A stretch of DNA of 64,000 nucleotides from contig JAQGDQ010000163.1 of the NCBI GenBank assembly GCA_030141605.1, positions 186,001 to 250,000 of the forward strand, given 5' to 3'. This DNA is from Tubiluchus corallicola (taxonomy: Eukaryota; Animalia; Priapulida). A model generated the notes under the pieces. It was not told the DNA's origin and made no database searches. It was given only the letters and a program-made list of their open reading frames with translations. Positions 2,793 to 59,884 of this stretch are shown one piece after another (position 1 is the first letter of the stretch; every line of letters starts with the position of its first letter). The translations under genes and the position numbers were made by a program.

Positions 2793-2857
2793 GACTTTTT
2801 ATGTAAAACAGCACAATCAGAATTGAAGAACTCACTGACTTTGCATTATGCAATACT

Positions 2858-18279: not shown

Positions 18280-21200
18280 TTATTCATGTTGTTCTAGAGA
18301 CTTGAGCACGCAGTTTGGACAACACAGTGGCACGAATTTTGGAGCTTTATACAAACTGACCAACAGTTGACCGGTTTGTAGAGGTATATTTCCTAAACTC
18401 TTGACCCGTGTCTCAAAATCGGGAAGAATCACATGCGAGAATTTCTCCTGCGTGAAATGATGGCCGCAGGAAAAAAGCACAGCAAAGTTATTAACAGCTT
18501 CGCCATCGCCATCTTGACGAAGACTGTCCAACTCTGTTGATGACAGCTCCACGTGGGGTGGGGTAATGCTGACTGTTGCACCCAAACTTGTTAGGACCTC
18601 TTTCCAGAGGCGATCTAATGTAACAGTAGAGGAAACTTCCCCTGCTCCATTTTCCAGCTGGTTTTTGTCGTTGACAAGGCGACCGTCACTTTGACCAAGG
18701 ATAATTTTGACGCTAGAGGCAGAGAGATTGCCGTCTTGGATCATCTCTGCCACCATAGAAGTGACGGTGATACAGAAGTGTGTGGAGAATCTCTCATCCA
18801 GTTTTACATGTTCACCAGTCACCAAATGCAATCCACTGAAATAAAAGAGACACGTGAACTACAGAAAGTCAACTAGATGCAGAACTGCAGGTGCAGCGAA
18901 TGCTTTTAAATAAACAATGTTATTTTGTAAGTGAATAATTGACGACAAAACTTATCTATGAATAACAAACTCGATCAAAATATTTATTTGACAATAATAT
19001 TTACAGTGACAAGCTAAATTACTAACATTATTTAAAAAGACTCAGCTTTTAGTTTAAAGGTGCCGAGGTCGACAGAAAGGTGAGCTGTACAATAAGAGAA
19101 AACTTCCTTTAAGATGTTAAAAGTGATTTGCAAAATTTTTATGACTAGGTTGGTCTTCAGTTGGGTCTCATTCTACACAAATCTATGTACCATTTCTAAG
19201 GGAGAACATTGAATGCTCGAATACATTCGAAAGAGCTTTTCAATTCAAATTTGATTCAAACCTAAAATTCAGGATTCGAATAATCACCGCTTTAACTATA
19301 TGTTCATTATCATAAAAACGTTTGAAACAGCATGCCATCAGTAGAGTTTAGCACGATTTTTGTGCATAACAAATGTAAAGCAAATTATTGGTGTTTTTCC
19401 TGCAGAGCAAAGTCAAACAATGTGCATGATCTTTGGAAGACTGCACTTTACTTATGATTCGAAAATTTTTAAGAGTGAATTCGAATCGAAATCTTGAAAT
19501 TCGGATTAATTCCAGTTCAAATGTCAAAAATTACATTCAATTCTGACAGACAATGCTGAACCGTAGCCATTTCTTGCCATGCCAAGCCGTCAGCACGATA
19601 AAGGTTTCCCCTATTGTGCAGCCATAATTTTACCATAATTTTTGCCAAAACTCAAAGTAAAGTGAATTTCTTTTTTCCAACAATTTGCATTGCTGCATTT
19701 GGAGAATTAGTGCTGACAAGTTTACGTGTCTAGAGCACTGAATTTTTTTGTTATCATAACTGCTTTAACAACATGTTCAGCATCAGCAAACATGTGTGCC
19801 TTTCTATAGTACAATACTTCAACAATAATTAAAACTTCTATTTATGAAGATAAATCCATAAACAGTTGATCACAAAACAGATTTGGGATGTAGATAACAA
19901 AATTTTCGAAAATTGTAGTCTGCAGCTCTCGTACCTGATAATAAACATTGCTAACTGTGGAGCTAGTGCCTCCAGGTGAGTCTCCAGTAATTCTTCTAAA
20001 TTAGCAAAATTCAACTCGTGTGTTACCCAAAATGTCAGCGTGACTTCGATCAATCTTGTCCAATCAGGATTGATCAGATCTCCCCGTAGTTCAGCAATGT
20101 CACACTCTCTGTAAGAAATTAAAACTAAAGTTACAACAGCTTGAACTAAAATTATGTAATTATCTACATGTAAGTAAAATGTGTGTAACTATGATATGCT
20201 ATTAAAGTAAAATAAATAAATTTAACCTGAAAGTAAATGTTGTTTTTTACCACACTTGAGATTGAAAACTAATTCCATTCATGAAACCTATGATACTGGA
20301 AGAATTTTGTTGAGAAACACAGCTTGATTTAAAAAAATCTGACTTCAAACAACTGCGAAGTAACTTACTGAATGTAATGATGAACTATAGAACATGCTGT
20401 ATCATTGAAATCTTCCTTCGTAACATCAGACACAACAGCCAAGCTTTTAAATCGGTAATACATAGCCTATAACACAACAAACAGAAGTCATTATTAACAA
20501 CAGTTAATTTCAGCAGTAAATATGAGCAAATTTATATATATATATATATAACATTCATGCAGCATATAGCAAAACTGTTTATGATGACTATTGATATTGG
20601 AGCTCTGTGACGACCCCATAATTGAATCGGTCAAATGTTAATGAGTGCCTGATGAACAACGTTAAGCCATGGCACGATTGACTTGTGAATGGCAGGTGGT
20701 CACTTTCGTTTAACATTGATTTAATATATGGCAATATTTCATTTGCCATACTGATTCTGTCTGTTCACCTCATTGAGGGAGGACGCATACACATCTGAAT
20801 GTAGCTAATCCAGTGTTTTATCTTAGAGCATTATACGTGATAACGAATCAAGTTCCGGTCTAAGTGCATACAGCAACTTTGAAGTGGACCCTGCTATAGC
20901 AGAATCAAAATAGTATTACAAAGATCAATTCAAATTAGTATTTGAACAAAAGCTGTGATACAAACTTTACTATAATATCAGCTGTGTAATGTGGCAAAAA
21001 ACCAATCTAATTCTCATATGAATCCTGAGAAATAAAACCAAAAAACACCAATTTACATACAAAAAAATGCTTTCGATGCTGGATAGCTCGAATGGAGCTT
21101 AAGCTTATAAGTCGCTAAAAATCACTTACATTGGGATAACGTTGATGATACTCTGACACGTCAGCCATGCTATCCCAGAGTTCTTCATCTGTGCACCGTT

Positions 21201-24200
21201 GTAATATCCTGTCTGCATTGTACCAACCCCGCAAGCGCTTCAGAGTCTGTCGCACTAGTACGCCCCACTCCTCGCTCTCTGCCTCCTGGGGGAGGGGAGG
21301 GAGTTCAAGGTGAATCAGACCTCGGTCGTCAACCTATCAAATAACCACAAAAGCAGTTTAAATGTAGGATAATGCAAATAATGGCAAAGACAAAACTATT
21401 GCTACAAAAACATTGTTCTGGGTAAGATTTAAATATTTTACACAAATAGCATGTTAGTATAAACAGAATTAAAAGTGAACTAATGTATGTTATGCACTAC
21501 AACAGTGATTTCCCAAGCTGGAACTTTGACCTAGTGAATATATAACCGTTCAAATTCCAGATTTAAGCCTATATCTATTTTAAATGCAAAAATGCTGTAT
21601 AAAAGTACCACTAAGTAAGATGAAACAAATGGCATCATCTTTCAAAGTTGTATTTTTATTTCTACATCTAGTATTATTGCACTTGACCAATGGTATTTAG
21701 ATATTGCTTTAGAGCAGTGGTTCTTAACCTGGGTTCGATCGAACTCTAGGGGTTCGGTGAGTCGATCTCAGGAGTTCGGCAGAGCCTCCGCCGCGAAGGT
21801 CCTGCAACAGCAGAAGTCACACTGATTTGCAGGTATGTAATTTGTTGTGAGTTTATGCATTGTGTTGGTTTTGTTCTTTGAACAAGGTGATGTTCATGCA
21901 CGGCTCATTTTGTGTACCAGTAAAAAACATATCTATGTCTTGAATTTGAAAAAAATCATATTTTATTTTTCACTAAAGAGGGGTTCGGTGAATGCGCATA
22001 TGAAACTGGTGGGGTTCGGTACCTCCAACAGGGTTAAGAACCACTGCTTTAGAGTGAACTTTGCACATACAAGTTAAGCTAACTTAACTTGCAAATTGAA
22101 AAGCTAAAGAAAAATAACTTTTCTTAAGGTAGACATCATGTTTATGCTGATCAGCACCAATGTGAAGCAAAGAACGTGAAACATATTTGCTTCAAATACA
22201 TACTGGAGACGCAAGAGGTATTGCAGGTATATCGGCAACTGGCTGAGGTCGCAGGACACCGAGTCGAATATTGATTGCACGAGACGGGATGGCTAAAGTG
22301 CGCTTGCTCGTCTTGATCATCATTCCCTGGCCACCAGAGTGTGCTCTGATCAGTGCTTGTGCCTCAACCCCGGGAGAGTGACCAACCTCTCCATTCTCGT
22401 TTTTACCCCATGCGTATACCCTCCCATCACGGTCGATCGCAACACTGAAGTCATTGCCACAGGCAACATAACCAATTTTCTTGTCAAATAGGCATAGCAC
22501 TCGACTAGGAACAAACTGAAATGGGCAAAATATTCTGTAAACAACATGGCAGAATAATCATATCGGAAATCTTCTGACAAAAAGTATGAAAGGGCAACAC
22601 TAATGCAATGTTACATAATGGAATCTTTAAAACTTGGTAAGCTTAAAAATATATTATTTGCCAATTAGTTTAGCTATACTATTAAGAGCTTCTAAACACA
22701 TTTATTCTGTCTTGGAAAAGTAGTCATTGCATAGCATAATGATAAAAATTGCCAAAATGTGACCCAAAAAGTTGAAATTGTGATACCAGGGGCCTCCTGT
22801 CCCCAGTTCCCAGCTGTCCATCCATGTTTTTACCATAAGTGTACAATCCACCATCATCAGTCAAGATAGCTGTGTGAGTGTTCCCTGCTGATATCTGAAA
22901 ATTTTAAGAAATGGTTATTAGTGAGGCAGTAACGTTAACAATAAAAACAGATAAACTGAAAAATTTGAACTACGTTAACTGAGTACGTGATGTACAGCAA
23001 TGGCGAAACTCTTCTCTGGTTTCTTGTAATGTGAAAGAATTGGCAAATTCATTGCTGTGGGAGCTCCATGCAAGGGGCAGTATGGGCTCTTATTGAAGCA
23101 CAGCCACTTATTACTTTTTAATCCCTTTATTCCTTATGAAGGCCAGATATATTTGTAGCAGTACAGCTTATTCCAATGCATGCCAGATAAATCTGGAACT
23201 ATGTCATTCACTTATGCCCAGTGCTTGGAACCAAGCTGAAACCTATGAACAGCATGCTGCAGCTTGTACATTTCACCAGCTGATGACTCAACTGTCACTT
23301 AGTGCTCATACACCAGCATGAATCTGATTCATAAGTGTTACAGTGAAGTTTCACACAAGAGCTGAGATGAATGCAAATTTTTCATTGCATCGATTTACAG
23401 CCCAATAAAGATACTGCCTGTATCGATAAAGACAGGCACTGATTTTTTGCTTCCTCGGGCATTTATTCGAACTTGGCCTTAAAGTACGGATCCCAAACAA
23501 GTAAATATGTCTTCAGGGTACACACTAATTATACCAGCAATTTTATTTTTAATTTCAACTGACTGTTCAATTTAGCTTACTACAGATTCAATGCAGGTTG
23601 CCGACATTAACCAATGAAAGTGAACTGAGTTATTATGTAGAGCTGTATGGGGCAGCATATTTTGCTTAAGGGATATTACGATAATAAAACGTTTTTGTAG
23701 TGTGAGCCTGGAAGACAGTGTAATTTTTGCCATTCTCAAAATGATTGTACCACGTTTTTTTAAACTTACAAACATTTCCAGTATACTAAATTTTTGTAAT
23801 TTACTTTATGTCCAGGATACTAAAAAATACTGATATTGTGAAATGCTTACTTGTTTTACATGGCCAGTTATATTGTTCGTATTCATCAAAAGAGGTACCA
23901 TGTGAGAGTTGTCAAACGTTACAGAGATCCTCCTCTTTGCCTCTCTCTCTTCTTTCCTTTCTTTGCCGACTTCCTCATGCATTTCTTCTTCATCTTCGTG
24001 TTTGACCACTAAACTCGCAAGATCTGTCGGAGGAGATCCGACAAGGAAAGCGAACTCAGCATTAGGCTTAGGAGTAGGCAGCTCCTCTTCTGTCTCTGAA
24101 TGGTCATTGGTTCTGTAACTACCGGGAATTGATATGGGTGGACTAGCAGGAGAGGAGGCAACTTTAGTAGCAGTGCTATCAACTGTAGAAATGGACACAG

Positions 24201-27200
24201 GTGACATAACATCATTAACTTTATTGGCATCCATTATACTGTCCATATCCGTACGTTCAGTATCTACAAGACCAGGTTCAATTGCAGCACCTTTATTATT
24301 ATCAAAAATGCTATCTGTCACAACATCTAGCCTACTTTTATTGCTAAATTCCATGGTACTGTCTTTGTCTAAATCTAACTTAGCACCTTCAACTGCATCT
24401 GCTTTCTTTACAGTAAGCTCTTTCTCAGCATCAATACTTTTATCAGTCACACTGCCTTCAGGAGTAACGTCTATCCTGTCAGTATCAGTGCCAGTTATTT
24501 TAGCATTTGCAAGACTATTTACAATTGTTTCATCTAATGAAGTTTCCTGATTATCAATACCAGATGTCAGGACTTCGTTTAAACTACTGGCATCACCAAC
24601 AGATGGCTCTGGTGTCACGGGCACAGCAGCATGTTCAACGTTTTCGGTGTGTCGCGATTGAGGTAAACTGGAATACTTTGGTGGGCTTTGACTGTGGTAA
24701 GACGGAGCAGGTGAGGTCGAGTGCTGTCGTCCATTCCGCCTCATTGCAGTTGTACGTAGAGCAGCGGCCTGTGGACTGCAGCCCCATGTGTAGACTTTGC
24801 TCGTTGAATTGTTTAAAACAGCAACCTAAAAATAGATTTTAGAAGTAAGCTTAGTAGTTACACAAGTTTATCCTGCCCATGAATAGGTAAATGCTGGTCA
24901 TTTCATAAATGAGTCAGGACTATCACTACTTGAAGTGCACAGAGCACTGTTAGTTTTATTTCGCCACTACAGAAAATGACAACAAAAAATGTCAATTCTC
25001 ATTTATTTTTTTACGTAAATATGTTGGCTAAATCCTGGAGATGTCATCACATTGTATTACTAAACAATAAATTGTCATTGCATCACATCACTTATTAATA
25101 TATGTCTTTGGCACATGTATTTTAATATGTCCGTTATATATTTATAAAAATATGTCAGTTATAACCGTTGCCATAATTATTCTGTATATAACATGACCAT
25201 CCATTACATTGCTATAAATATGTGTTTACATCATGATAACATCATCACCATAGTCATCATTATCAAAATTACTGATAAATAACAACACCTGTCATACCAT
25301 ATGAAAATATCCGCTGACCAACATTGTGCAAGGCTCTGGAAGAGACACTGCCATCGGAAGAGACACTTTCATTGTGACCGATGGTCCGAGGCCTAACTGA
25401 CCGTAACCAGCACATCCAAAGGTATAGACTTCGCCCTGCAGGAAGCCAAAAACTATAACAGATTTGAGATTATGCTTCGTAAAGCAGTTTAAGAAATACC
25501 AGAAGGTGATAAAAATTTGGTCCATTTATCCTAAGAAAACAGTAACATAACAAAGTTTTTTAAATGTTAAAGCTTAAAACTGTAGGATGGCTGATTAGAA
25601 CACCCTTGCAGTTTTTCTCAACCTTTCTCCACAGTCAACTCATAATTTTACAACATAATTTCCAACATGAGGTTCTTCACAAGTGTGTGCTTCCACAGCA
25701 AAAACGTCTAGAAGACGGTAGTTAAGCTTTTGTAAATTATTCACATAACCTGTACCTCTATTTCAAAGTGGATCATTACCGGTTCAGTGTTCCATGTTGT
25801 TTCTAATCTCAGATAATCCACTCTGAAATTGAGGTTCAGGCTAGACAGTGAAAAATATAATCTTGAGAAAATCGCTGTTAAACTTTGCCATTGTTTTTGT
25901 CATGCTTCTACAAAAAAGGTTAGCAACTGTATGAATGGTGGTTGCTATGAAGCATATTGAAGTTGTGCTTAAATCCTGTAGATGGCTCTTCCAAATAAGA
26001 CCTGAGCTTGACAACAGAAAAAACCACAAGCAAAATAAACGCTTCCATGAGCTACTATTGGAGTTTGAAAATACGAGCTTTTGACAAACACAACACTAGT
26101 TTTTAGGCAAAGAAGTGGGTAAGGAGTTATAAAATTAAATGTTTAGTATTTTCTAAACAATTTACTGTCATCTTGATTCTAGAAGTAGAACATAAAAGTC
26201 CAACATATTTAGCATGTGTTTCTGTCAAAAACACAAAATTGATATTTGACCCAATTTTTGATGCATTCTACTTGAAGCATCACAACATAGCTTTAACTAT
26301 TTAACTTGTGGACGGTTTTGGTTCGCAAGTACACAAATAAGAAAACTAAATTAAAACTGAACTAAAATGTAATGAAAACCTTTTCAGTAAGTGCGGCAGA
26401 GTGCGCATATCCGGCACAAATTGCAACGATCACGTGACAATCTAATGCCCGCACTTTTGTGGGTAAATGATAATCCTCCGGTGAACCATGACCTAGCTGC
26501 CCGTGCACGCCCCAACCACAACTGTACACCCTGAATAAAGCAAAAATTAAACACAGTCAAGTACAGTAAAATATGCTTCAGCTTAACTACAGTGCTTGAA
26601 ATGTAGTTGTATACAAGTGTATAGCATATATATTTCCAGAATAATAACTGACAATCGACTGCATTCTTAAAACTCTCGTATCATTCTTTTCGTAAGAAAT
26701 TCTATAAGTTTGAACAAAATGAAAATCTGAACCATCATCTAAGAATCATGTAACACAGAATCTACAGACATACTAAAACTTATTTAACGTAATCAGTATC
26801 ACTCAAAATAAATTGCAAATTCACCTTTACTAATAAAATCTTTTTATACTAATGAGCATTTTAATAAATTTTAAAAATTGCATATCAGATTTAGCATATC
26901 TTGAATTTAGGAAATCTGTCTATATTACATTAAAAATTTTATTAGCTCGATAATATTAAACTGATTTAATTATTTAACTGTATTAGCACAAGTACCTGCC
27001 AGTATCGCTTAAAGTAAGAGTGTGATATTGTCCACATGCAATTGCCACAACATCCGAGTGATCTAGTGCATCAATATGTACTGGGTTTTCTTCCATATCT
27101 GTTGTACCCGTACCTAGCTGACCATAGCGGTTGTTGCCCCATGCATAAACCTGTAAATAAACTGAAATTTCAACTCAAATCAAGTTTGTTTACCAGATGC

Positions 27201-39200: not shown

Positions 39201-42200
39201 CATAAAACATGTTATACACTTCATTGACAAAATTTTATAATTTATACTGTTGCTTTAGTTGGCAAAGAGGGTGCTATGAATAGTTTGATGTATTTTTCCA
39301 AACTTTATGTAATGTTATCTAAACTTCAAACAACTTACCATTAAAATAGCTGCCCCTATCTTGAGAGTATAAATTGGTTTAAATTTACAAGTTTTACATA
39401 CAGCGTTACTGTTAAAACAAACTCTGCAATCAGACAGCATGTAAGTGACACAAAATTTCAAAACAATTTTTTAAAGCTTTATTTACTAAGTGTACTTTCT
39501 TGTCCTTTGAAAACTTGAAAGCAACAACTCTTGTGCAAAGCAAAGTTCAGCTATTGATAAAAACAGCAGAATTATTATGAATATTGAGTAATATAAAACA
39601 CTGATTGCCAGTCAAATTAATTATCGATCAAAACTTTAAAACGTGAATTTATTTAAAGCAATTCCAGCCATATGCATGGTTTGCAGAAAAAGAAAGCAAA
39701 AAATATGTTGTCATAGTCTGCTGGAACAGGTTAGCGTAAAACTAAAGAACAACAGCATGTTCGAAAAGCCTATGTATAATTGGTTTGTTTTTGTAAATAC
39801 GTGCAATGTAGCATTAATTTATAGAGTTTTAAAAGCCACTTGCAGTTGCTTTTTAACATATTGATGACAACAATGTATAGGTGAATAATGAGCAACCTAT
39901 AATATAGGCAAAAATGTAGGTGAATAATGAGCAACCTATAATATAGGCCAGAATGTAGGTGAATAATGAGCAACGAGCAACCTATAATATAGGCCAGAAT
40001 GTAGGTGAACAATGAGCAACCTATAATATAGGCCAGAATGTAGGTGAATAATGAGCAACCTATAATATAGGCCAGAATGTAGGTGAATAATGAGCAAGCT
40101 ATAATATAGGACAGAATGTAACACATTTTCTCGAAAGCTGTTAATTAATTGCATTAAACTATATATGCGGGTATTTATTATTTATTGTACGTACAAATGG
40201 TAGCATCTTAGCAACACAGTAAAAAAATATCAGTAAAAGTAATTGCTACAAAAATTAGTATTTACCATACAAATTCATATCTCTCAGAAGTAACTGGTCA
40301 AGACTATTAATCAAACAGGTATGACAAATAATTTCAGATAATTACCAGCGTACCTGAGTTCAGCAGCTGAGGAACGGTTTTGAAAACGACTTGCCTTCAT
40401 GTCACATTTCTCCTTTAATGACTTGAGAATATCCTCCCCAAAAGCGAGTGATTTGGAGGTGGTTTCTTTTATCACCTGAAAATGCACAATGTGCTGCTAG
40501 CATCTACTATAATGCATACACAGAAAACTTTGAAAATAATGGTCTGAATTTTTGTGTTTTTCAAGAAAACATAATTCCAAAAGCCAAACGACTCCATGTG
40601 TACGTAATGTGTAACCGTGATCGCTGTCGTCCGAATACGCATCATGCAGCAATACGCTGACAGGAAACTGCTGTTGCCTAGATGATTATAGTGAGTTTCC
40701 AGTTACCATATTTGCTGTTTAGCTTTCTAAAAATTCTAGTTAGGTGAATTTTGGTCACTTGAGGATCTATAAACAATAATATTTTTTTCTATTTGAAGTT
40801 TTGAGAGATGGAAGAAGCATGTTATTATGTGTTGCGCATCTAACTGCAGTATCACTAACGCATGATTGTATTGTTCTCTCCAGAGCAAAATGTTGTGCAC
40901 CAAAAACCTGTGCTTTATTTTGAATTTTTCCGTCTAACGGTAAAATAATAAGCTAATGCTGCAACTGTAATTATCATGCTTATATTTCGAGAGACATGAT
41001 TTCCAAAAATTATTGTTTGCAATTTTCACGAACAGTGACCAAAAATGACGAAAAGAGCAGTGTGGGTTTTGTTAATACGCATAGCGTTTATGAACACATG
41101 AAAACAGTTCAATACGCATTACACATTACGGATCACAGATCACGCATTACACATTACGGATCACAGATCACGCATTACACATTACGGATCACAGATCACT
41201 CGTTACACGAACGTAGCTTTAAGGTCAAAAAATGATAGACACACAAAAAATATTAAAGCAAAAGCTAAGTCTCTTGGGGAGCTGAGCTTATTTTAATATT
41301 TGGGAAAAATGTTAGACAGTTTCAGCAATAAAACTGTGACAAGCATCTCATGTAACTAGTAAAATCAATTTAAAGTCGTGATTACTTTACGCTTGGGCAC
41401 GCTCATTTTAGCGAAAAATGGGGTCATCTGGTTTCGGTGCATTGTAAATTCTTATCCTGCCAAGTGCTTCAGAAACCTTTTTAACCTACAGAGTAAACTC
41501 TATAAACTAAGCAACCAGCCCGGCACCTGCTACATGCTGGCAAGTTCACATGTGTATGTAAAAATCAACAAAAATCTGAAAATTAATTATTTACCCAATT
41601 AATGTTAATTACTTACACATTTTAAGATATAATCCTGCAGATTAAAGCAATGTAACCACAAATTTGATCATAATTGATCGAGTGACTAATTTCTAGAAAA
41701 ACACAGTTAAGCACAACATTAGAATAACGGCAAGTTCTTCTAAGCAAGCTGTAGAAATTTTGCAACGAGTACCTTCATACAACTTGCCTTTACGACATTC
41801 ATGCTGACCAGCAAACACCAGCTTATGTCATTTTTTTGAAATATGCCGGCATCATCGTTCGTTTGGCGGGAAATAAGAAATAAACAAATTTCTTTTACAT
41901 TTTTAAGCAAAGCATTTTATGCACATATTTTGTATTGTGATTTCAGTATTTTTAATTGTGCATTAAAATGCAATAAATGTTGTTCGAGGGTTGGTTCTTC
42001 CTTTAAAGATTTGAGCATCAAAGACACGTTTATGAAACAGGTAACTGAGCACCTAATATTCAAAAAGTGGATTACCAAAAATCGAAAAAAATGACCTCCA
42101 GTTAAGGTATGAAAGCAAAAACTCGGGGCAAAAAGTAAAGTGACCACATTTTAACTTTACCAGTTCTCCCATGTCGCCATGGATACCGTGTCGTAGTAAC

Positions 42201-45200: not shown

Positions 45201-47975
45201 ACTGGTTGCCACTGACTGATGTCACCTAGAAAAACAAAGTCTAGAGTTGATGAAAAGCAAATTATTGTTTTAAGTGGCAAACATGCCAAGAATTCACTAA
45301 AACAGTATTCAGAACCGTAAATACTCTAAACTTTGTAACACTTAAGTTTTCAGCATATTTTACATTGCATTTTGATATGTTAAACAACGTATACTTCTCT
45401 TCAAATGCATGTGACTTAAATGATAAATTACATTACGTACACGTATTGTAAAGAAAGATCAAAACGAGCTAACAAATAAAAAAACGCATAAATCATTTTG
45501 CATCACAATAAGATTTTCGTAATTCGCAAAACTTTTTACTTAACGAACAAATTAACAAAACCAATGAATAGGTCTTACCAATAAATGCGTGCTTGATTGT
45601 TCATTGTTACTAATTATCTCCAATGTGTCTATTTGCTCAGGTATATAAGTACCGCCAACTTCTTTACCTTTCACTAAATCGATGAACACGACTTCACCGA
45701 GCTACAAAAAAAAGAGTAAAACCACATTAAGACTATTACACTTTTATAATGTTTACAACTGCATACAAAATGTGCCATTTTTTCAGGACTATAAGAAAAG
45801 ATCGCAAAAAATAGACAAACAGCAACGATAGTCTTCAATAAATTTATCTACTTTTTGCCTGTCTTTGCTGTATATTTGACTTTGTAGTGAGAAATGGCAC
45901 TTTTCTGACAAAGGAAAGAAAGAAATGTAAAATTAAGGTACAAACTGCTTGAGACTCATGTTGTTCTTGAATAAAGAAAGTTTAAAATGAAACTTGCAAC
46001 AAAAAACTATAAAAGACTAAATATTAACACCTTTCTCAGTTTTTCTCCAACACATTACCCACAATGAGTAATAATTGTTAAAATAAAGCGCAATGGTTAA
46101 CAAACTCTGGTAATCACAGTCACAATCTAATTAATTAAGTCTAAGGAGAATGAGACTCATTTTCTAGGAGACACTATTTTCTAGGAGAATGAGACTCAAT
46201 AAATAAAGATAAAAAGAGCATATTTAGAGAATGAAGTCGTGATTTACTTATGTTTCTCAATAAATGCCTACCTGGTTACCTAAGATACCTATGTGCTGAT
46301 CATCCAGTGTATCCCACCATACTACAGCCATGGCCTTGGCTACAAAGTATAACATAAATAGTATAATATACCTTGCCATACTATGGCCATGGACTTCATC
46401 GTACACAAAACACAGAGAAAATATATAGTTAAAGGCCTAAACTACTATGTTGGTAACCGTACTCACATGTACTAATTTGCATTCACAAATGTAAATGTTT
46501 TTAAGTATGTTTGTACACAAACTCAAACTTTAGTGTCATAAAGATGTTACATTCGTTATGGATAAGCACTTAGCAAAACTTTCTACTGAAGCTGAATTTT
46601 CATTGGTTGAATTATAAGAAGTCACTTGTGAGTTACAAGACCAGAATTTTTCACCATGTAACATGAAATGTTTAAGGTAAACATTTAAAAAACAAGGAGA
46701 ATTTGTTTGACTATTTATTTTACTCAAGTAATATATTTAACATCATTTAAAAAACACAGAAGGCTCAGTAATACCTTTACTACTGCGTGATGTGAATACT
46801 TCCGTAATATTCACAGTATTCCAAATCTGATTAACCTTCACCGTCGAATCCTGAAAAAATAAAATGTAAACAGGAAATTTTATTTATAACTTGATGTGAA
46901 ATGCCCATTGATTTGGCACTCGGTTTGCATGTTCACTGACTAATTATGAAATATACTGTGATTTGTGGTAATGGTGTACTTCACAGTCCAGAAAAATGGA
47001 TGGAATTTATTGTAAATGACACTGTTTTCTTTTTTTCACATAATGTTAATAATTACATACTTTCTCACCCAAGCCCTGTATAGTTGTTGCATGGAAAAAC
47101 AAAAGTACACAAAATTACTATTTAACATATAAATGAGTAAATAAGTTAATGACTTCACAGCTTTGATTTTCAATATTTATGCATAGTGTATCTTGCTCTA
47201 CTCAGTATTAATAGTTTTTTGCTTAAAAACAATGTAAAATTACAAATTACAATTTTTTCTAAAAAATTTCGCAGCACAACACTGAAACCAGTTCAATAAT
47301 AGAAAAATAATGTCAAGTTAGAAAGGCTAGCCATGCACATACCATAGCAGTAAGAATGGGCAAAATGTACAGAGAGTTATTCTCACTGGCACATAGTAAC
47401 CATGTTCCACTAGGATCAAATGCCATGGCAATGATCTTTGACATTATGGAGCTACTCCAGTCGATGCGGTGGAGGACTGCCGATTCACATCCGGAGCTGT
47501 ACCTGACGACTAATGTACCTGTGAGGTAGTTACGTGTTTCTATGTACTAGTAAAACCACAATCAAAGCTAGATTCAATGGAATACATTACAATACATTAG
47601 AATAGTCATAGCACATCCAGTTAAAGTTTGCAATTAAAGTTTACAAGTTTACAAATGAAAGTTTCCAGTATTCACTATCTTATTAGGTTCTCTTTTGGAA
47701 CAACTTCATTCACGTGTAATTTCCATAGAAAAAAGTAAAATAAACTGATATGAAAGAAATTCATCTATTTTTTTACCATCTTGACATATAACAGCCAGAA
47801 GACTACGCTCTCCGACGTCGCTCCAAGCATACAGCTTTAGGTAAGATTGTGCCAACACATCTACACCTTGTTCAGTCTCATTGGTTGAGGCTTCATCAGC
47901 TTTAGATGATACGGACGTCACGCGAGACAAAACATCAAGATCTAGAATCTTCACAATCTCAAACAATGGAAACAT
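18280..47975 (-). CDS. Large multi-exon RCC1-repeat protein, claret/GLO-4-like (putative Rab32/38-type GEF for lysosome-related organelles)
   Basis: Approximate exons: 47975-47777, 47518-47343, 46851-46775, 46339-46272, 45702-45579, 45225-45087, 44503-44366, 43511-43338, 42313-42141, 40475-40395, 39006-38772, 37230-37000, 35286-35066, 33719-33604, 33112-33017, 32531-32405, 31319-31115, 30049-29845, 28646-28522, 27954-27831, 27151-26996, 26530-26380, 25435-25298, 24825-23851, 22895-22787, 22504-22203, 21332-21130, 20459-20368, 20109-19934, 18836-18280. Seven RCC1 repeats (e.g. VSCGFEHSVALTSNGVYAWGNNRYGQLG, ICAGYAHSAALTEKGEVYTFGCAGYGQLG), N-terminal WD-like segment (AFDPSGTWLLCASENNSLYILP) and C-terminal Cys/His motif. 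The start codon and a few junction phases are uncertain; claret orthology is inferred from architecture. Confidence 0.75.
19215..19545 (-). repeat. Dispersed repeat (MITE-like), inverted relative to 14780-15115
   Basis: Reverse complement reads ttgaatgtaatttttgacatttgaactggaattaatccgaatttcaagatttcga..., similar to the sequence from 14781 onward. Confidence 0.65.
21715..22046. mobile_element. hAT (Charlie/SPIN-like) non-autonomous MITE, 332 bp
   Basis: Perfect TIR CAGTGGTTCTTAACC...GGTTAAGAACCACTG; perfect 8-bp TSD CTTTAGAG at 21707-21714 and 22047-22054; internal GGGTTCG repeats. Confidence 0.93.
29168..29268 (+). repeat. 23-bp tandem repeat (about 4 copies)
   Basis: gtacatctagtatattatttttg repeated. 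Confidence 0.85.
30211..30573 (+). mobile_element. 5'-truncated RTE-clade LINE or RTE-tailed SINE insertion
   Basis: KIQEARLRRYGHLRRR...RRRGRPKR (RTE ORF C-terminus), (GAA)n tail, and 19-bp TSD AGCAAATTATTACGTGACA at 30192-30210 and 30574-30592. Confidence 0.88.
33750..34060 (+). mobile_element. 3' fragment of a non-LTR retrotransposon (ETGRY...RLC..C...H...C zinc-knuckle end)
   Basis: RCGVTSIRLETGRYK then (frameshift) LPEVQRLCLFCNSISTQSELHVLTGCELYQD. Confidence 0.65.
39876..40120 (+). repeat. 34-bp minisatellite, about 7 copies
   Basis: gtaggtgaataatgagcaacctataatataggccagaat-type unit (period about 39 nt in the full-length copies, shorter conserved core); one copy has a 7-nt internal duplication. 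Confidence 0.8.
41114..41200 (+). repeat. 28-bp tandem repeat, 3 copies
   Basis: acgcattacacattacggatcacagatc repeated. Confidence 0.9.
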
Positions 47976-50249: not shown

Positions 50250-51161
50250 TACTATAATGATTGTGCAAGCAAGTACGCCTGGAATGAGATCCGAGGAGCC
50301 ATAGAGAAGGCATCTCGTCAGGTACAGACTGCTCAAACGATACGGGTGAGCTCCTTATCCTCATAATTAATGAACTAATCTCAATGGGAAAAGATTTGTT
50401 AACCGCAGATTTGGCAAGAATCTCAAATCGTGAGCATCCAAACTCAAACTGATACTGGTTGGACAAAAGCAAGTAAAAAAGCGTCTGCAAATTTTACAAA
50501 AAAGGGAACTGCAAATTTGGCATTACTGGAAAAGGAGCCATGTATGATCATCCCAAGACATATAAAAAACTATTGCAGTATGGGGCTACGTCTTGCAAAA
50601 GGTCAAATTGGGTAGAAAATGTGAAATTTCTTCACCCAAAAATTTGTAAAGATCACATTCTGATGGTATTTGTCTATACCGGAACTGTATCATATGTTCA
50701 CATTAAAGGCACAAAAAGGACAGCTTGATTGCACAAGTCACCTCTAGGATCAATAAGAAAAAGGTTGAAGTTTCCACCAAAGCAAGAAGTCCAGCTGGAA
50801 ACGTGCAAACAGCTCCATTGGATGCCGATGATAATCACACTACAAGCAATCATTTTTTAGAAGTACGGAGTGCTGTTCGTCAGATACAACAGCAAATGCA
50901 ACAAATGCAGACTGCTTTAACTCAAATTGCAGGCATTCAAGCAAGCAAACCAAAGCCTGTATCCCATGGAAATGGACAGGAACAGGAATCCTCAATCACA
51001 ACTAATAAAACAATCTGATATTTGTAATAACTTTGATACTGTCATTTGATTATTTTATTATAGTAACTCTCGTCGTCTTGTTAATAGGAAATCTCAGTTT
51101 GACTTATTGTTAAGTGGTCAGGGAGAATTGCATTAATAACTGAAACTTGGTTTACACATAC
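50250..51161 (+). mobile_element. CR1-like LINE, 5' part: degraded ORF1 (CCCH zinc fingers, coiled coil) and start of the ORF2 endonuclease
   Basis: Frameshifted CKFYKKGNCKFG...CMYDHPKT...FLHPKICKD and Q-rich coiled coil (VRQIQQQMQQMQ), followed by the APE motif ALITETWFTH immediately before the LTR insertion. Confidence 0.65.
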
Positions 51162-51342
51162 TGTTTGGGCTTTCAAAAACCAAATTCGAAGCTCCATTAA
51201 ATTTTGCTGCCAAAACATGTCATTCCATCTAAACATAAGAAATTAGTGCCAAAAAATAACAAATAAACAAAAAATAACAATAGCCAAAAGTCAATTTTAC
51301 ATAATTAAGAGTTATACACTGCACTGTCGTATTAATTAATAC
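51162..51342 (-). repeat. 3' LTR
   Basis: 163 alignable nt with 6 substitutions versus 53319-53502, plus an 18-nt extra segment and a 21-nt gap (manual alignment). Confidence 0.9.
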
Positions 51343-52766
51343 CGAGTTAAATGACCATACCGAGAAGCCTCGTGGTGTGTATAATGTTCGACGCTCGCTT
51401 CAAAACGTCTAATAAAGCGCCAAAAATTCATTACATCGCCGTCGAATTTCTCTAAATCAATTGATGGCAGCTGCATGGCATTATACATTTGCATACGTCG
51501 GCGCTGCCCTTCTAGCATGATGCTCATGACTGCATTTAAGTCAGTTGGATTTGTTGGTGGAGCGGACGTTTTGCCTAAGCGCTTTTCAAAACCAGAAGCA
51601 GCAGGCCAAAATTCGTGAGGCCTAATGTCTGGCATAGCATGAAACTGTGTAGGCCTAAATTCTGTCGACGATTTTGGGACGAAGTCATCTATTGCTGCTT
51701 TCAAGCGGCTATGTTCATTATACGTTTCATAATTAGAACGAGTCTGTTGAAGCGCTGCACATTTATTCTCAGTTTGAAACCCTGGCTCTACTTGATTGAT
51801 GTAATTCCCCAACCAGCGACTAAGCATTTTCGATTCATAATCAGTTGCGCCTGTAGGTGGCGCCACGTGCCTGCAAATTGTACTGAGTATGTTGTCCCAT
51901 GGTTTCCGGGAACCTATAAAGTGAACAACTTTAACATGATTACCAAATTGTTTAACAGCTGGTAAATAACCGTAAGCACCCTTCAAGACAGCATTATATG
52001 CAAAAGGCAGATGTTTATGAAAATCTATAACCCAGGTATTGAAATATAAATTTAACAAGCCCTGGTCCCCGCCGTCAAATGAACTAGCATTCGTCTGTGC
52101 AAACGATACAAGTTTTTCGCAAGTACTTAGACTAGGCCTAAATACAAACACCCCACTATTAAAGCAGTCGGCCCACCCGACATCTGGAGCAGCAGAGAGC
52201 TCCTCATAATTGAACATATCATCAATGTTACTTAATACTAACGTATCCGAGTCCATAAATACACATTTACTGAACTGAGTTAACTGCCAACAGTGTAACT
52301 TAGTAAATGTAACATTTAACTCTGGCCTACCTAATAAAAGTAGATTTTCAGTATCATGACTATCAATCAAATTTACATACTTAACATAATCAAATTTATT
52401 TTTAAGTTGCTCTACTGCAACGTGAGAAACCTCTTTTGTGATCATCACAACCAAGCGACGCTTCGTTTTAACCTCCCGTAGACTGCATGCCAGCACCAGT
52501 GCTCCTAATGCGTACTTGTCGTTTGTGACCAAGGTAACGAAGGCTTCTTTTAAGCAGCTCTGTTCCTCCTTAGGTGTGATTTCATTTGAAACCTCGTTTG
52601 CAAGGACGTCGGTTGTCTGTAACCAGTCAGCTACCTTCTGTTTACAGCTTTCACCAGCAGATGGCGCCACATCCTGCCTGGACTCAACCTCGTCGTGACT
52701 GTCGTCGTCATTAGCACCACCAACTGTAGCCATCTCTACCTGCAGGCGTTCGTGTCTCAGCTTCAT
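51336..52766 (-). CDS. Gag-glycogenin chimeric ORF (476 aa from first Met; frame open from ~52910)
   Basis: GT8/glycogenin ~52547-51790: EAFVTLVTNDKYALGALVL, FTKLHCWQLTQFSKCVFMDSDTLVLSNIDDMF, ELSAAPDVGWADCFNSGVFVFRPS, SFDGGDQGLLN, HLPFAYN, AYGYLPAVKQFG, VVHFIGSRKPW. Gag-like flanks on both sides; the stop codon is supplied by the LTR. Confidence 0.85.
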   Translation of the reverse strand: MKLRHERLQVEMATVGGANDDDSHDEVESRQDVAPSAGESCKQKVADWLQTTDVLANEVSNEITPKEEQSCLKEAFVTLVTNDKYALGALVLACSLREVKTKRRLVVMITKEVSHVAVEQLKNKFDYVKYVNLIDSHDTENLLLLGRPELNVTFTKLHCWQLTQFSKCVFMDSDTLVLSNIDDMFNYEELSAAPDVGWADCFNSGVFVFRPSLSTCEKLVSFAQTNASSFDGGDQGLLNLYFNTWVIDFHKHLPFAYNAVLKGAYGYLPAVKQFGNHVKVVHFIGSRKPWDNILSTICRHVAPPTGATDYESKMLSRWLGNYINQVEPGFQTENKCAALQQTRSNYETYNEHSRLKAAIDDFVPKSSTEFRPTQFHAMPDIRPHEFWPAASGFEKRLGKTSAPPTNPTDLNAVMSIMLEGQRRRMQMYNAMQLPSIDLEKFDGDVMNFWRFIRRFEASVEHYTHHEASRYGHLTRY

Positions 52767-52813
52767 GGCCTGAAGTTTGAGTTCCTGTTCACGAATTTTC
52801 AGCTCCTGACTCT

Positions 52814-53146
52814 TCAGCCTTTTGCACTGTCTTTGCTGCCTTTGCGCATGGACGTGGTAGATGTTCTTAAAACACCTGCAGAAATTGAAGCTGCAACAGT
52901 AGCACGCCCGTCATCAGTGCCAGTTTGCCGTGCTGACGACTCTTTAAAACCGACTGTCTCTATACCACCGGGCTGACCGTGTGCACCAGCTAATTTACTG
53001 AAGCCAGGCTCTCCAAGCTCAGACTCCAAAACTCGCCGCACCAACTCTGCTTTACTACCAGCTACTATCAAGCCTTTTTGGCGTAAAATTGTTCGCATTT
53101 GTTCAACAGTTTTATTTTTTAACTCTAGCTCTCTTTGTTGATACAT
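52814..53146 (-). CDS. SAP-domain N-terminal gag segment (110 aa), one base out of frame with the downstream ORF
   Basis: LKNKTVEQMRTILRQKGLIVAGSKAELVRRVLE fits the SAP consensus (L..LTV.ELK..LK.RGL...G.KAELI.RL.E). Confidence 0.75.
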   Translation of the reverse strand: MYQQRELELKNKTVEQMRTILRQKGLIVAGSKAELVRRVLESELGEPGFSKLAGAHGQPGGIETVGFKESSARQTGTDDGRATVAASISAGVLRTSTTSMRKGSKDSAKG

Positions 53147-53318
53147 TGTCTTGTTTTTCTCAGGCCTAGAAAGATCTGGCTATGCGTTGAAGTAAAAACC
53201 TTCCTATATGCAAAGTAGGTTCACGCACCAACCTATAGCATACTACGCTGTCCACGTAGGCCAACTGTACAAAACGGCTGTCGAGCTCGTTGATTGTCAA
53301 GGTCGTTTAACATGGAAT

Positions 53319-53503
53319 TGTTTGAGCTTTCAAAAACCAAATTCGAAGCTCGATTAAATTTTGCTCTTTCTTTGCTCTTTTTATTTGCCAAAACATGTCA
53401 TTCCATCTAAACATAAGAAATTAGTGCCAAAAAATAACAATAGCCAAACGTCAATTTAACGTAATTAAGAGTTATACACTGCACTGTCGTATTAGTTAAT
53501 ACA
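53319..53503 (-). repeat. 5' LTR
   Basis: On the - strand begins TGTATTAAC and ends CTCAAACA; contains TATAA (~53472-53476) and AATAAA (53380-53385). Confidence 0.9.
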
Positions 53504-54960
53504 TAGCTGTTATTTTAAACTAAATTAAAATTTTTTTAAAGTAATTAGAGGACATACATACGTTATTATTCCCAAATCATGAGCAATTGTAACAGATAAC
53601 GACAATACCTTATCAACCAAGGCATTTGTTTCGATGTTAATGTTGTAGAATCTGTTACTATGTCTGACCATTCAGCAGTTGTCTTTGAATGCCAAGACCC
53701 ATTGTACACTAATGCGTAGACATTGTGTAAAATCCGTAACTACCAGAATGCAAAATGGGACACAATTGGGCGTCAACTATCTATTGTTAACTGGCACAAT
53801 ACTTTTGATTCCTGTGCTTCCGTACAAAGTTTGTAGGAAGGACAGGTTCTACAACATAATCAATGAAGCCATTGACAACAACGTTCCCTGCATGGTATTG
53901 TCTAGCATGCATAAAGGTAAAAGGAAACATAACACTAATTACCCTCCTTACCTGAAACGCATAATCGATAAGAAGCGCAAGCATTGAGCATGTAAATTCA
54001 AAACGTAATAATTCTGCTGAAAATAAGAAAGAATACACCGCTCTGAATAGCAAATTTAAAAAAGAATCATATAAGTTAGCTACTCGTGAACACAGAGTTT
54101 TAGCTAGTAATGATCGTAACAAATTGTTTAAGTACATTCGTAGAACAAGATGTAATGATAATGGCATAGCACCATTAAAAGATAAGCAAGGTAACATTGT
54201 TGTTGCTGATCTAGAATTAGCTAATTTATTAAATGACTGTTTTAGTGACTGTCATTACAATCTTTGAATTTTTCACCTGTTTCTGTCCGTAAAGCCATTC
54301 AAAAAATTAAATCTAAAAAAGTTGTACGCCTGACAGTTTACCAGCCATTGTTTTTAACCAGTTGATTGATATAATCTGTTTACCTTTATCAATGCTTTTT
54401 AAAGTCTCTTTTAGTCAAAGCAGCCTCCCATATGAATGGAAAGTAGCAGATGAAGTACCCATAATAAAAAGGGAAAGTTCCGACCCGAGCAACTGTAGAC
54501 GTACTTCTCTTACTTACATCTCATGTAAAATCATGGAAATTTGTGTTTGTACAGAGATGCTAGCATTTCTTAATAGGCATAACTAAGTACCAGCATGGGT
54601 TTCTATCAAAACATTCAGGATGCACACACTTGTTAGAATCAATTTACGATTGGACTGTTGCTTTAAATGACAAAACATAAGTTGATATTATATATATTGA
54701 TTTAAAAAGCTTTTGGTTCAGTTAGTCACTGCCTACTGCTAGATTGGATTAAAAGTTTTTTAACAGGGTGCTTACAAAAAGTTGTTATTGGTAGTAGTTC
54801 TAATTATGTACAAGTAACTTCAGGAGTAGCTCAGGGCAGCCTCCTGGATCCTTTACTGTTTATGTTATTTGTAAATGATCTGCCTGATGTCATTGGTAGT
54901 ACTCATTGTAAACTATATGCAGATGGTGTAAAATTATATCACTGGGCTGACACTGGCAAT
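53504..54960 (+). mobile_element. CR1-like LINE, degraded ORF2 (end of endonuclease and RT)
   Basis: VESVTMSDHSAVVF (APE SDH), LPYEWKVADEVPIIK...SNCRRTSLTYISCKIME, QHGF, YIDLK, VTSGVAQGSLLDPLLFMLFVNDLPD...KLYADGVKLY; many stops and frameshifts. Confidence 0.88.
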
Positions 54961-55109
54961 GATAATATTGCCATTGATACACATTATCAAGGATGATCAT
55001 TATTGTGATGATCATTTACCATAATTTTGCACTTATATTATTAATATTGCTTTTTAACTGCCTTGTCGCTTATGTACTGTACTTTGAAGATTACGAAATA
55101 AGTAAAAAA

Positions 55110-58439: not shown

Positions 58440-59884
58440 CAAGCCGAGGTTATTTAGAGCAAATACTTTGTACGACTCTTAATTGATTTTGCCGAATGTA
58501 AAAATAAAATCTTTTACTTGGCTTTCATTGACTATCAGAAAGCATGTGACATGGTTAATCGAAACAAACTGTTGGAAATGATGGCTCTTAATGGATGCGG
58601 CTACAGGTATGTCAAAGCTATTGGCGAAACCTTGAAGAAATGTTCCAGTGTCATGGAGACCGAGACGTTTGGCTCTAGAAGAGGTGTTCAGCAAGGAGGC
58701 TCTACAAGCTGCTCATTGTTTACTCTGTTCGTAGATTACGTTATTGACTCAGTTAATGTGTCACCTGACGAGGAATGACTAGAATCTTTGCATCAGTTAT
58801 TACTGATGGACGACACGGTTCTTGCCTCATCCATGCCTGCCTTGGCTGACAAGTTGAACAGACTGTACCATGCCGTAAACGAAATCGGAATGATACTTCA
58901 TCCCCCTAAGTCCCAGTTTATGGTTATTAATTCTGAAGACACTGACCCCTTAAGTGTCGGCCCTTTTGTGTTAAAGTCGAATACACAAGGAGTTATGGCT
59001 ATTTGGGATCCATAATAATCAACTCTTCTATAGATCACCAAGTTGAGACTCACATGCAAGCTAAACAATCATATATTCGTTTTACCCATATACGTTTTTT
59101 ACCCATCGTCATTTTTAATCCAAAACGCAGGTGCGCCTTATGTTGCAAAAAGAACTGTCTGGCAAAGTGCTATGAAAAGCGCTATTCTCTATGGATCCGA
59201 AACCTGGTGGACAAAAAACCTATCATATGTTTCTCAGCCTATTTTACAGACTAAAAGAAATGTTTGGCGTGCGTCAACAGACTTGTACTGACATAGTTCA
59301 TATTGAGAGTGATATTGCTTCGTGCAAAGCTGAGATTCAGGCACGGTAACGGAATTTCATAAATACGTACAGAACATCTAATCTTTATATAGAGGAAGTC
59401 CATTACAGAAAGCGTTAGTTCTTGTTGCCGTAATGATACATCCATGGGAAGCCAGCTCCGATTTCTAGATTCAATACACGGATATCCTAGAACTGACTTT
59501 TTAAAATTACGCAGACATGCTATTCTTTCCTCGCTATCAACCAGGAGAAATACCTACTTAGCCGTAAATCCGTCGCTAACCACTCATCGCATTTATCAGA
59601 CATATGATGTGCCCGAACACGAAAGAATAGCCGCAACCGACCTGCGTCTGGGAGCTCATTATCTCCGAATCGAAACAGGACGCTGGACAAATATCCCCCG
59701 CCACCAACGTCTATGCATTTGTGGTCTTGTGCAAGACGAAGAACACATCGTGTGCCATTGTAGTTATACTAGTGATCTAAGAACTGATGGTGAAGCAGAG
59801 TTTAGTTCGTTAGATGCCTTTATGGACTGGACTTCACCCAAAGTGGTTGCTACTATATGCAATAACTGTCTTTCTAGGAGTTAA
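58440..59884 (+). mobile_element. 5'-truncated, frameshifted non-LTR retrotransposon ORF2 (RT and C-terminal zinc knuckle; clade uncertain, RTE-X/Proto2-like)
   Basis: FIDYQKACDMVNR, GVQQGGSTSCSLFTLFVD, LLMDDTVL, AILYGSETW, LRLGAHYLRIETGRWTNIPRHQRLCICGLVQDEEHIVCHCSYTSDLR. Confidence 0.85.

What the first reader, a model, noticed from the sequence alone, without database searches (positions are those of the whole stretch)
51336..53146. Glycogenin enzyme domain captured in-frame inside the Gag of a BEL/Pao-like LTR retrotransposon
Seen: between two ~185-bp LTRs the - strand encodes a SAP domain, a coiled coil, a 'KVADWL' linker, a ~250-aa glycogenin GT8 domain, an S/T/P-rich linker and LPSIDLEKFDGDVMNFWRFIRRFE. 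The GT8 domain is intronless although UXT, EMC3 and the RCC1 gene here are intron-rich, and it is in frame with gag-like sequence on both sides. Established: the last motif is the DUF1759-type start of the BEL/Pao capsid region, and glycogenin is the self-glucosylating primer of glycogen synthesis. Inference: a host glycogenin mRNA was recombined into the variable N-terminal part of Gag and propagated as part of the element. This could give a Gag that glucosylates itself or neighbours (glycan-coated VLP, association with glycogen particles such as those in oocytes) or uses glycogenin dimerisation. I am not aware of a described Gag-glycogenin fusion, but cannot search the literature.
Basis: partly seen in the sequence, partly recalled or inferred. 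Interest (0 to 1): 0.93.

Follow-up and report, generated by a model that had tools for sequence, protein, structure and literature searches.

The report
Glycogenin enzyme inside a retrotransposon Gag
A broken copy of an animal jumping gene carries the catalytic part of glycogenin, the enzyme that starts glycogen synthesis, in frame with its likely capsid-forming protein; a distant sister copy shows that part was kept under selection, so the element family likely used a sugar-adding enzyme of its own.

Summary
Largely confirmed, with corrections. An intronless glycogenin catalytic domain (51771-52550, minus strand) lies in frame between a coiled-coil-like stretch and a Gag-capsid-like start. 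All catalytic residues are kept; the synthase-binding tail is missing. The SAP domain is not in frame with it in this copy. The element spans 51162-53604, with a 286-nt LTR, a truncated 3' LTR, a 4-nt target-site duplication and no pol: it is a dead, internally deleted copy. Public contigs from three studies hold sister copies. One at about 88% identity crosses both glycogenin junctions without a frame break and gives dN/dS 0.08 over 79 core codons (14 synonymous of 19 differences, P=1.5e-6). That argues against misassembly and a neutral retrocopy. BEL/Pao membership is not shown: no Pfam DUF1759 hit, no adjacent tRNA primer site, no pol seen. Best reading: a retrotransposon family captured host glycogenin by template switching and kept it as a likely self-glucosylating, dimerising Gag domain. 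A domesticated host chimera remains possible. No fused homologue appeared among the listed protein hits, in four literature searches, or in two look-ups of this scan's earlier notes.

The parts
53605..53608 (.). 4-nt target-site duplication, 5' side
   Evidence: same 4 letters as 51158-51161; chance 0.0065 per boundary tried; boundary inferred from contig depth and contig starts
53319..53604 (-). 5' LTR, 286 nt, TG..CA, AATAAA at position 220; a high-copy repeat in the genome
   Evidence: outer end inferred (repeat-level depth runs 16-24 nt past 53588 in three runs)
53147..53318 (-). 172-nt leader; no TGG-type primer site within 20 nt of the LTR
   Evidence: an X4 contig with 13 other letters spans leader into LTR, 53233-53372
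52814..53146 (-). ATG-started ORF: SAP domain (53122-53024) and an S/T/G-rich stretch
   Evidence: PF02037 E 1.2e-6, 28.4 bits against cut-off 23.9
52814..52910 (-). zone of the frame break between the SAP frame and the GT8 frame in this copy
   Evidence: frames differ; sister contigs in X1, X2 and X4 differ from the window by small indels in this zone
52551..52823 (-). coiled-coil-like stretch (52823-52725), acidic spacer, KVADWL motif; Gag N-terminal region (inferred)
   Evidence: sequence; 73% E/K/R/Q/L; no Pfam hit; the likeness to BEL Gag is recalled
51771..52550 (-). intronless glycogenin catalytic domain (GT8), without the C-terminal synthase-binding tail
   Evidence: dN/dS 0.08 against the X5 copy
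51471..51770 (-). variable linker
   Evidence: no Pfam hit; the X5 contig runs through it with a net length change of about 9 nt, which keeps the frame (inferred from record coordinates)
51357..51470 (-). first ~40 residues of a Gag capsid-like region, cut off
   Evidence: Atlas leads 0.80-0.89, Gag-type families; Pfam no hit
51343..51360 (-). deletion junction with a short directly repeated 8-mer; rest of gag, pol, polypurine tract and first ~100 nt of the 3' LTR are missing
   Evidence: sequence; other repeat copies continue as the 5' LTR does
51162..51342 (-). truncated 3' LTR; 6 mismatches in 163 aligned columns (3.7%) and two indels against the 5' LTR
51158..51161 (.). 4-nt target-site duplication, 3' side

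Best explanation
This is a dead, internally deleted copy of an LTR retrotransposon whose likely Gag protein carries a glycogenin catalytic domain, likely captured from a host mRNA, kept under purifying selection between sister copies, and predicted to act as a self-glucosylating, dimer-forming module. SHOWN: LTRs and target-site duplication; an intronless glycogenin domain in frame between coil and capsid-like start; all catalytic residues and the acceptor tyrosine present; synthase-binding tail absent; several diverged copies; dN/dS 0.08 in the core. INFERRED: capture by reverse-transcriptase template switching inside the particle; selection acting during replication of the family; Mn/UDP-glucose activity that puts a short alpha-1,4-glucan on the tyrosine of each Gag dimer. 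MOST LIKELY USE (about 0.3 on its own): the glucan and the dimer tie Gag to cytoplasmic glycogen granules, for example in the germ line, as a place to gather and assemble. Without the tail the domain would make short chains and would not recruit glycogen synthase in the usual way.
For: Glycogenin identity. 101 of 112 columns conserved in at least 90% of 107 host glycogenins are kept, although identity to any of them is at most 59% and the branch is long (1.17 against a median of 0.21, quick tree). By the alignment the equivalents of D102, D104, K86, D160, D163, Q164, Y195, H212 and K218 are present (Tyr195 as acceptor: PMC7046021, passages; the other roles are recalled). Tail profile hits 317 of 363 fetched proteins at E<1e-5 but not the element. 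Three GT8 versions in one sample (0, 18 and 50 other letters; X2). X5 contigs cross the N junction (52358-52802, 62 other letters, no gap) and the C side (51748-52292, 64 other letters, no gap); an X4 contig crosses the C junction (51587-51908, 12 other letters, no gap). X5 against window, residues 264-342: 14 synonymous of 19 differences, dS 0.35, dN 0.027, P=1.5e-6; no catalytic residue among the five changed. The next 35 codons have a similar dS (0.32) and dN/dS 0.56. 0 of 2000 neutral simulations at that divergence kept 260 codons stop-free. LTR joined to SAP/leader in other copies (joint 53119-53389 in X1 and X2; X4 contig 53233-53372). Homodimer model: score 0.49, best of 3 controls 0.00, runs agree in at least 93% of contacts, pLDDT at least 81. 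The mark was reached by 21 of 30 microbial pairs and 0 of 23 single chains; on eukaryotes by 17 of 29 pairs but only 1 of 7 without a solved relative. Glycogenin dimers are solved, so the pass may be from memory.
Against: No copy with pol was seen, so mobility of the GT8-bearing family is inferred. dN/dS rests on one pair and 79 codons (38 of the 94 X5 differences in the stretch were listed for 51781-52119; I took the list as complete there because 7 of 7 X5 rows in that interval recur). X5 depth fits a single locus with two alleles, and X5 has no cover on the leader or the 3' part of the 5' LTR, so its copy could be a host gene. The second GT8 copy in X1/X2 has a 4-nt deletion, so it is also decayed. 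Contig depth is higher on the coil region than on GT8, so sisters without the domain may exist. 11 of 112 conserved columns are changed in this copy. No primer site next to the LTR. No activity was measured.
Confidence: 0.62

Rival explanations
1. Domesticated chimera: a Gag-glycogenin fusion became a single host gene under selection (possibly what X5 holds), and the window's copy is a decayed LTR-flanked derivative.
For: No pol seen in any copy. Long unbranched X5 contigs (774 and 446 nt) at depth 12-16 and paired short variants at depth 6-7 fit one locus with two alleles. X5 has no cover on 53161-53481. Gag-host fusions of this kind are known (Crtg14-PEX14, Crtg10-KELP; PMC8321522, passages).
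Against: LTR-leader-SAP joins exist in at least two other copies. One sample holds three GT8 versions, two with gaps, and no gap-free diverged version was listed for it. The element has a target-site duplication and LTRs only 3.7% apart.
Confidence: 0.2
2. The domain is kept as a dimerisation or spacer module for Gag; catalysis is incidental.
For: The predicted dimer passes (0.49 against 0.00, possibly from memory). The tail is lost.
Against: Metal-binding, catalytic and acceptor residues are all kept on a long branch, which dimerisation alone would not require.
Confidence: 0.08
3. Neutral passenger: an LTR-mediated retrocopy of glycogenin, as in Tan et al. 2016, copied a few times without function.
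For: The mechanism is common in animals and young copies are often in frame (PMC5131818, passages). The copies seen in the best-covered sample are decayed. Sites where the window alone differs are 5 synonymous of 16, not different from neutral (P=0.35).
Against: dN/dS 0.08 at dS 0.35. Shared junctions, and about 14% divergence in the coil region too (23 other letters in 168 nt), so the fused unit diverged as one piece. Open frame after that divergence in 0 of 2000 neutral runs.
Confidence: 0.07
4. Assembly chimera, or chance flanking by an unrelated high-copy repeat.
For: The repeat is far deeper than the internal region (bins 470-3100 against 13-123 in X1) and has no adjacent primer site. No listed contig spans the whole element.
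Against: Both GT8 junctions occur in independent studies. Flank contigs run into the LTR ends with no differences (X1 records 1 and 8). TG..CA ends, AATAAA and a matching 4-nt duplication.
Confidence: 0.03

Closest known systems
LTR-mediated retrocopies of animals (Tan et al. 2016, PMC5131818; passages read, 9 supplementary files searched)
   Same: Intronless part of a host mRNA between LTR-element sequences, no poly(A), likely template switching; one mosquito case is flanked by a BEL element.
   Different: Those are young or decaying and replace part of the element's ORFs. Here the domain sits in frame with Gag-like sequence on both sides and shows purifying selection at dS 0.35. No 'glycogenin' or 'gyg' in the files searched (file 1 not searchable).
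Burro/GYPSM1 giant Gypsy elements of planarians (PMC6431247, section 7 read)
   Same: Host-like domains built in frame into the retroelement polyprotein.
   Different: Their domains are regulatory (BIR, BCL2, MATH, ankyrin, SUMO-like) or dUTPase and lie after Gag. Here a sugar-transfer enzyme lies before the capsid-like region.
Host proteins incorporated by transposons in Repbase (Abrusan et al. 2013, PMC3597677; passages and 4 supplementary files)
   Same: Lists BEL elements with incorporated host domains (BEL1-I_SM, BEL-612_AA).
   Different: No glycogenin and no PF01501 in the tables searched (file 1 not searchable).
Animal glycogenin-1 (GT8; PDB 1LL2, 3V8Y)
   Same: Same fold (TM 0.88), same active site and acceptor tyrosine, predicted dimer. 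The captured span is close to the crystallised form truncated at residue 270.
   Different: At most 59% identical to any hit, long branch, no introns, no C-terminal synthase-binding tail (PMC8203840, passages), fused inside a Gag-like ORF.
Domesticated gag-host fusions Crtg10-KELP and Crtg14-PEX14 (PMC8321522, passages)
   Same: Gag fused with a host protein and under selection; Crtg14 is Bel-Pao-derived.
   Different: Those are fixed host genes in plants and fungi. This one is flanked by LTRs and a target-site duplication and has several decayed copies.

Membership tests
Glycogenin (GT8) | GT8 domain with glycogenin fold | tested here: met
   PF01501 E 8.6e-21; PDB E 2.5e-83; TM 0.88
Glycogenin (GT8) | DxD, His, catalytic Asp/Lys/Gln and acceptor Tyr | tested here: met
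   aligned to rabbit glycogenin; 101 of 112 conserved columns kept
Glycogenin (GT8) | C-terminal glycogen-synthase-binding motif | tested here: not met
   profile from 48 of 107 host tails hits 317 of 363 proteins but not P0001 or P0002; best six-frame score -0.5 bits
Glycogenin (GT8) | homodimer | tested here: inconclusive
   model passes (0.49 against 0.00) but may be from memory of solved dimers
Glycogenin (GT8) | self-glucosylation with UDP-glucose and Mn | not testable with these tools
   needs an assay
LTR retrotransposon | direct terminal repeats with TG..CA ends | tested here: met
   5' LTR 286 nt, outer end inferred from depth; 3' LTR truncated
LTR retrotransposon | 4-6 nt target-site duplication (PMC12440569, passages) | tested here: met
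   4 nt, chance 0.0065 per boundary tried; no empty site seen
LTR retrotransposon | gag capsid homology | tested here: inconclusive
   Atlas leads 0.80-0.89 to DUF4939, Retrotrans_gag, DUF7041, DUF1759, all under 0.9; Pfam none
LTR retrotransposon | pol (PR-RT-RH-IN) and polypurine tract | tested here: not met
   absent between the LTRs of this copy; full-length sisters could not be searched, no genome held
Belpaoviridae (BEL/Pao) | tRNA-Arg or tRNA-Gly primer site after the 5' LTR (PMC8742986, whole text) | tested here: not met
   no TGG within 20 nt of the LTR; nearest at leader positions 56, 65 and 89
Belpaoviridae (BEL/Pao) | DUF1759-type Gag | tested here: inconclusive
   only ~40 residues survive; Pfam no hit; Atlas 0.80 at rank 24, below Ty3-type families; the motif likeness is recalled
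Belpaoviridae (BEL/Pao) | RT phylogeny and nucleocapsid zinc knuckles | not testable with these tools
   deleted in this copy
Belpaoviridae (BEL/Pao) | LTR length 0.2-1.2 kb (PMC8742986) | tested here: met
   286 nt; not diagnostic

The most novel reading that the evidence does not exclude
An autonomous animal LTR retrotransposon family encodes its own active glycogenin inside Gag, so its particles glucosylate themselves and assemble on, or hide among, host glycogen granules: a retroelement with a captured carbohydrate-metabolism enzyme as a working part of its capsid precursor.
Probability: 0.3. Interest if true: 0.9.

Novelty: new variant of a known kind. Interest (0 to 1): 0.74.

Why it matters
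Host domains known in LTR elements are mostly nucleic-acid, ubiquitin or apoptosis related. A glycogen-priming enzyme kept by selection inside Gag would link retroelement assembly to carbohydrate stores. It gives a testable handle on how the little-studied particles of such elements form and reach the germ line. It is also a natural tail-less glycogenin, useful for asking what glycogenin does without glycogen synthase. If the domestication rival holds, it is a new chimeric animal gene.

Tried and rejected
No genome is held, so no copy count or search for full-length elements. Protein searches showed no fusion. Longer proteins: 120 of 243 hits listed, none showing a Gag or Pol family among its precomputed Pfam domains. 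Region 400-524: 0 of 20 candidates. Near lengths: 120 of 2383 listed. Representatives: 150 of 5091 listed; 20 of these, including those with extra N-terminal sequence, gave only GT8-type Pfam hits. Glycogenins crowd these lists, so the blanks are weak. Metagenome contigs and viral contigs: no relative. Atlas on residues 345-524: no usable hit. No RNA holder listed, and nothing laid from X6: no evidence on expression either way. Tree: quick method only, 75 rows, P0258 left out; the host lineage is unresolved beyond animal glycogenins; three row labels were my guesses. Self-priming idea: a 7-nt complement of the post-LTR start lies in the LTR, but 247 of 5000 shuffles do as well, so weak. MITE reading of the repeat: no inverted repeat over 9 nt. 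The sigma-70 scan is irrelevant to an animal locus. Window-private sites: 16 of the 40 rows shown (375 not shown), a 17th lying outside the ORF was dropped, and one of the 16 lies in the frame-break zone; this list is biased by how rows are kept. Summed contig depth is not a copy number and was used only as a direction. Literature listings with no relevant hit. PMC3118150 and PMC2836005 (passages) gave no BEL-specific duplication length.

Full report
Observation. The minus strand holds a stop-free frame of 524 codons at 52910-51336 and a second ORF at 53146-52814. The second carries a SAP domain (PF02037, E 1.2e-6). The first carries a charged helical stretch, the KVADWL motif, a GT8 domain (PF01501, E 8.6e-21), a linker and a motif beginning LPSIDLEKFDGD. 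Contigs of sister copies differ from the window by small indels in that zone, so the break is probably private to this copy.

The GT8 is glycogenin. It matches rabbit glycogenin-1 at E 2.5e-83. Its model (pLDDT 84) overlays glycogenin crystals at TM 0.88. Over 107 host hits the match runs from residue 122 to 378, host residues 7 to 263 (medians), without an intron. Of 112 columns conserved in at least 90% of those hosts, 101 are kept. By the alignment these include the equivalents of D102, D104, K86, D160, D163, Q164, Y195, H212 and K218. Tyr195 is the glucose acceptor and chains reach 7-12 residues (PMC7046021, passages); the other roles are recalled. The C-terminal motif that binds glycogen synthase (PMC8203840, passages) is absent: a profile of it hits 317 of 363 fetched proteins but not the element. 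Identity to hosts is at most 59%, median 56%, against 64% between hosts. The branch is long and its place among animal glycogenins is unresolved (quick tree). A homodimer model passes at 0.49 against a best control of 0.00, with the interface beside the acceptor tyrosine; solved dimers exist, so this may be memory.

The element. The direct repeats align over 163 columns with 6 mismatches and two indels. In public contigs the repeat is high-copy and other copies continue beyond 51343 as the 5' copy does, so the 3' copy is truncated. Repeat-level depth runs 16-24 nt past 53588 in three runs, which puts the outer end at 53604. That gives a 286-nt LTR with TG..CA ends and AATAAA at position 220, and the same four letters on both outer sides (chance 0.0065 per boundary tried). 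LTR elements make 4-6 nt duplications (PMC12440569, passages). Gag stops about 40 residues into the capsid-like region and runs into the middle of the 3' LTR through a short repeated 8-mer. Pol is gone. This copy cannot move by itself. It appears to lie within a decayed LINE.

Is it BEL/Pao? Not shown. Pfam does not hit DUF1759. The Atlas returns Gag-capsid families for residues 462-518, all under 0.9, with DUF4939 and Retrotrans_gag above DUF1759 at 0.80. The tRNA primer site described for Belpaoviridae (PMC8742986, whole text) is not next to the LTR. The order SAP, coil, V-x-x-W, LP..F.GD matches BEL Gag as I recall it, which is a lead and not a test.

Copies. No genome was held, so I laid Logan contigs of five runs from four samples; four runs from three studies had cover. 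One sample holds three versions of the GT8 stretch with 0, 18 and 50 other letters, more than two alleles explain if the sample is one diploid animal. An X4 contig crosses the C junction without a gap. X5 contigs cross the N junction (62 other letters in 445 nt, no gap) and run from the core into the linker (64 in 545 nt, no gap, then a net change of about 9 nt). One X5 contig runs 17 letters past the cut in gag with other letters, too few to judge. LTR-to-SAP joins occur in other copies too. Misassembly and a single-copy event are therefore unlikely. Against a tidy picture: the second copy in X1/X2 has a 4-nt deletion, depth is higher on the coil than on GT8, X5 has no cover on the leader, and no contig shows pol.

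Selection. One search listed 38 consecutive X5 differences between 51781 and 52119 (40 of 94 rows shown; 7 of 7 X5 rows in that interval recur). In the core, residues 264-342, 14 of 19 are synonymous: dS 0.35, dN 0.027, ratio 0.08, binomial P 1.5e-6, no stop, no catalytic residue changed. In the following loop and helix, 6 of 19 are synonymous, dS 0.32, ratio 0.56 (Fisher P 0.02 against the core). Sites where the window alone differs from X1/X2, X4 and X5 are 5 synonymous of 16, compatible with neutral decay (P 0.35); that list is a biased subset. Under neutral change at that level, 0 of 2000 runs kept 260 codons open. So the lineage joining these copies kept the enzyme core, while this copy has since decayed. 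It is one pair and 79 codons.

Mechanism. The most likely history is template switching onto a co-packaged glycogenin mRNA (PMC5131818, passages), which placed the catalytic domain alone in the variable N-terminal half of Gag. Selection then kept the active site while the rest drifted. Keeping metal ligands, catalytic residues and acceptor tyrosine points to activity, not only to a dimer. The predicted product is a Gag dimer with short alpha-1,4-glucans. I favour a role in tying Gag to glycogen granules as an assembly site, at about 0.3; shielding or glucosylating a host protein are open alternatives. The main rival is a domesticated chimeric host gene (0.2), of the kind of Crtg14-PEX14 (PMC8321522, passages); X5 alone cannot exclude it.

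Novelty. Host-domain capture by LTR elements is known: LTR-mediated retrocopies, Burro polyproteins (PMC6431247, section 7), and BEL elements with incorporated domains (PMC3597677, passages and tables). I found no glycogenin or GT8 in a Gag. The searches were four protein searches, three contig scans, four literature searches seen as listings and two papers' supplements, each with one file unreadable. Repbase and subscription journals were not searchable. This scan's notes hold no look-alike and one unrelated capture of a viral polymerase (unchecked). Verdict: a real, selected Gag-glycogenin fusion seen through a dead copy; new variant of a known kind; interest 0.74.

Noticed in passing
window 50403-51018 (+) and 53649-54996 (+): The element seems to sit inside a decayed LINE-like element: CCCH zinc-finger pieces on the left (E 0.012) and reverse-transcriptase pieces on the right (E 5e-5, below cut-off), same strand.
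   Followed up: partly
window 52287-52333 (X1, X4) and 52047-52087 (X5): Contigs that fit only 41-47 nt at the most conserved GT8 motifs and run on unlike; likely a more distant glycogenin such as the host gene, or a distant element subfamily.
   Followed up: partly
window 51428-51747, X1 record 2: A 1228-nt contig with only 4 other letters here and 908 letters on the gag-downstream side that are not placed; it could hold an insertion or the continuation of the element.
   Followed up: no
window 51162-51342 and 53319-53604: The LTR is a very high-copy repeat in X1/X2 (bins 30-340 times the flank depth) while the internal part is 1-9 times: many solo LTRs or sister families without the domain.
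   Followed up: partly
window 52613-52727: At several sites all contigs laid from the best-holding sample differ from the window, so that sample is probably not the window's individual, or records were filtered.
   Followed up: no
window 53319-53406 and 53229: No tRNA-type primer site next to the LTR; a 7-nt fold-back match into the LTR (5% in shuffles) and a TGG-started stretch 89 nt downstream are both weak candidates.
   Followed up: partly
window 1680-2798 (-): A 372-codon uninterrupted ORF matching TEDC1 (PF14970, E 1.7e-31).
   Followed up: no
window 18280-24825 (-) and 47313-47546 (-): Exon-like ORFs with an RCC1 repeat (22192-22557) and a WD40-like repeat (47313-47546).
   Followed up: no
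window 39770-40144 and 41114-41208: Tandem arrays of 39-nt and 14/28-nt units.
   Followed up: no
window 59393-59884 (+): An ORF ending in a C-x-C...H...C motif like the C-terminus of LINE ORF2 proteins (likeness recalled; no Pfam hit).
   Followed up: no
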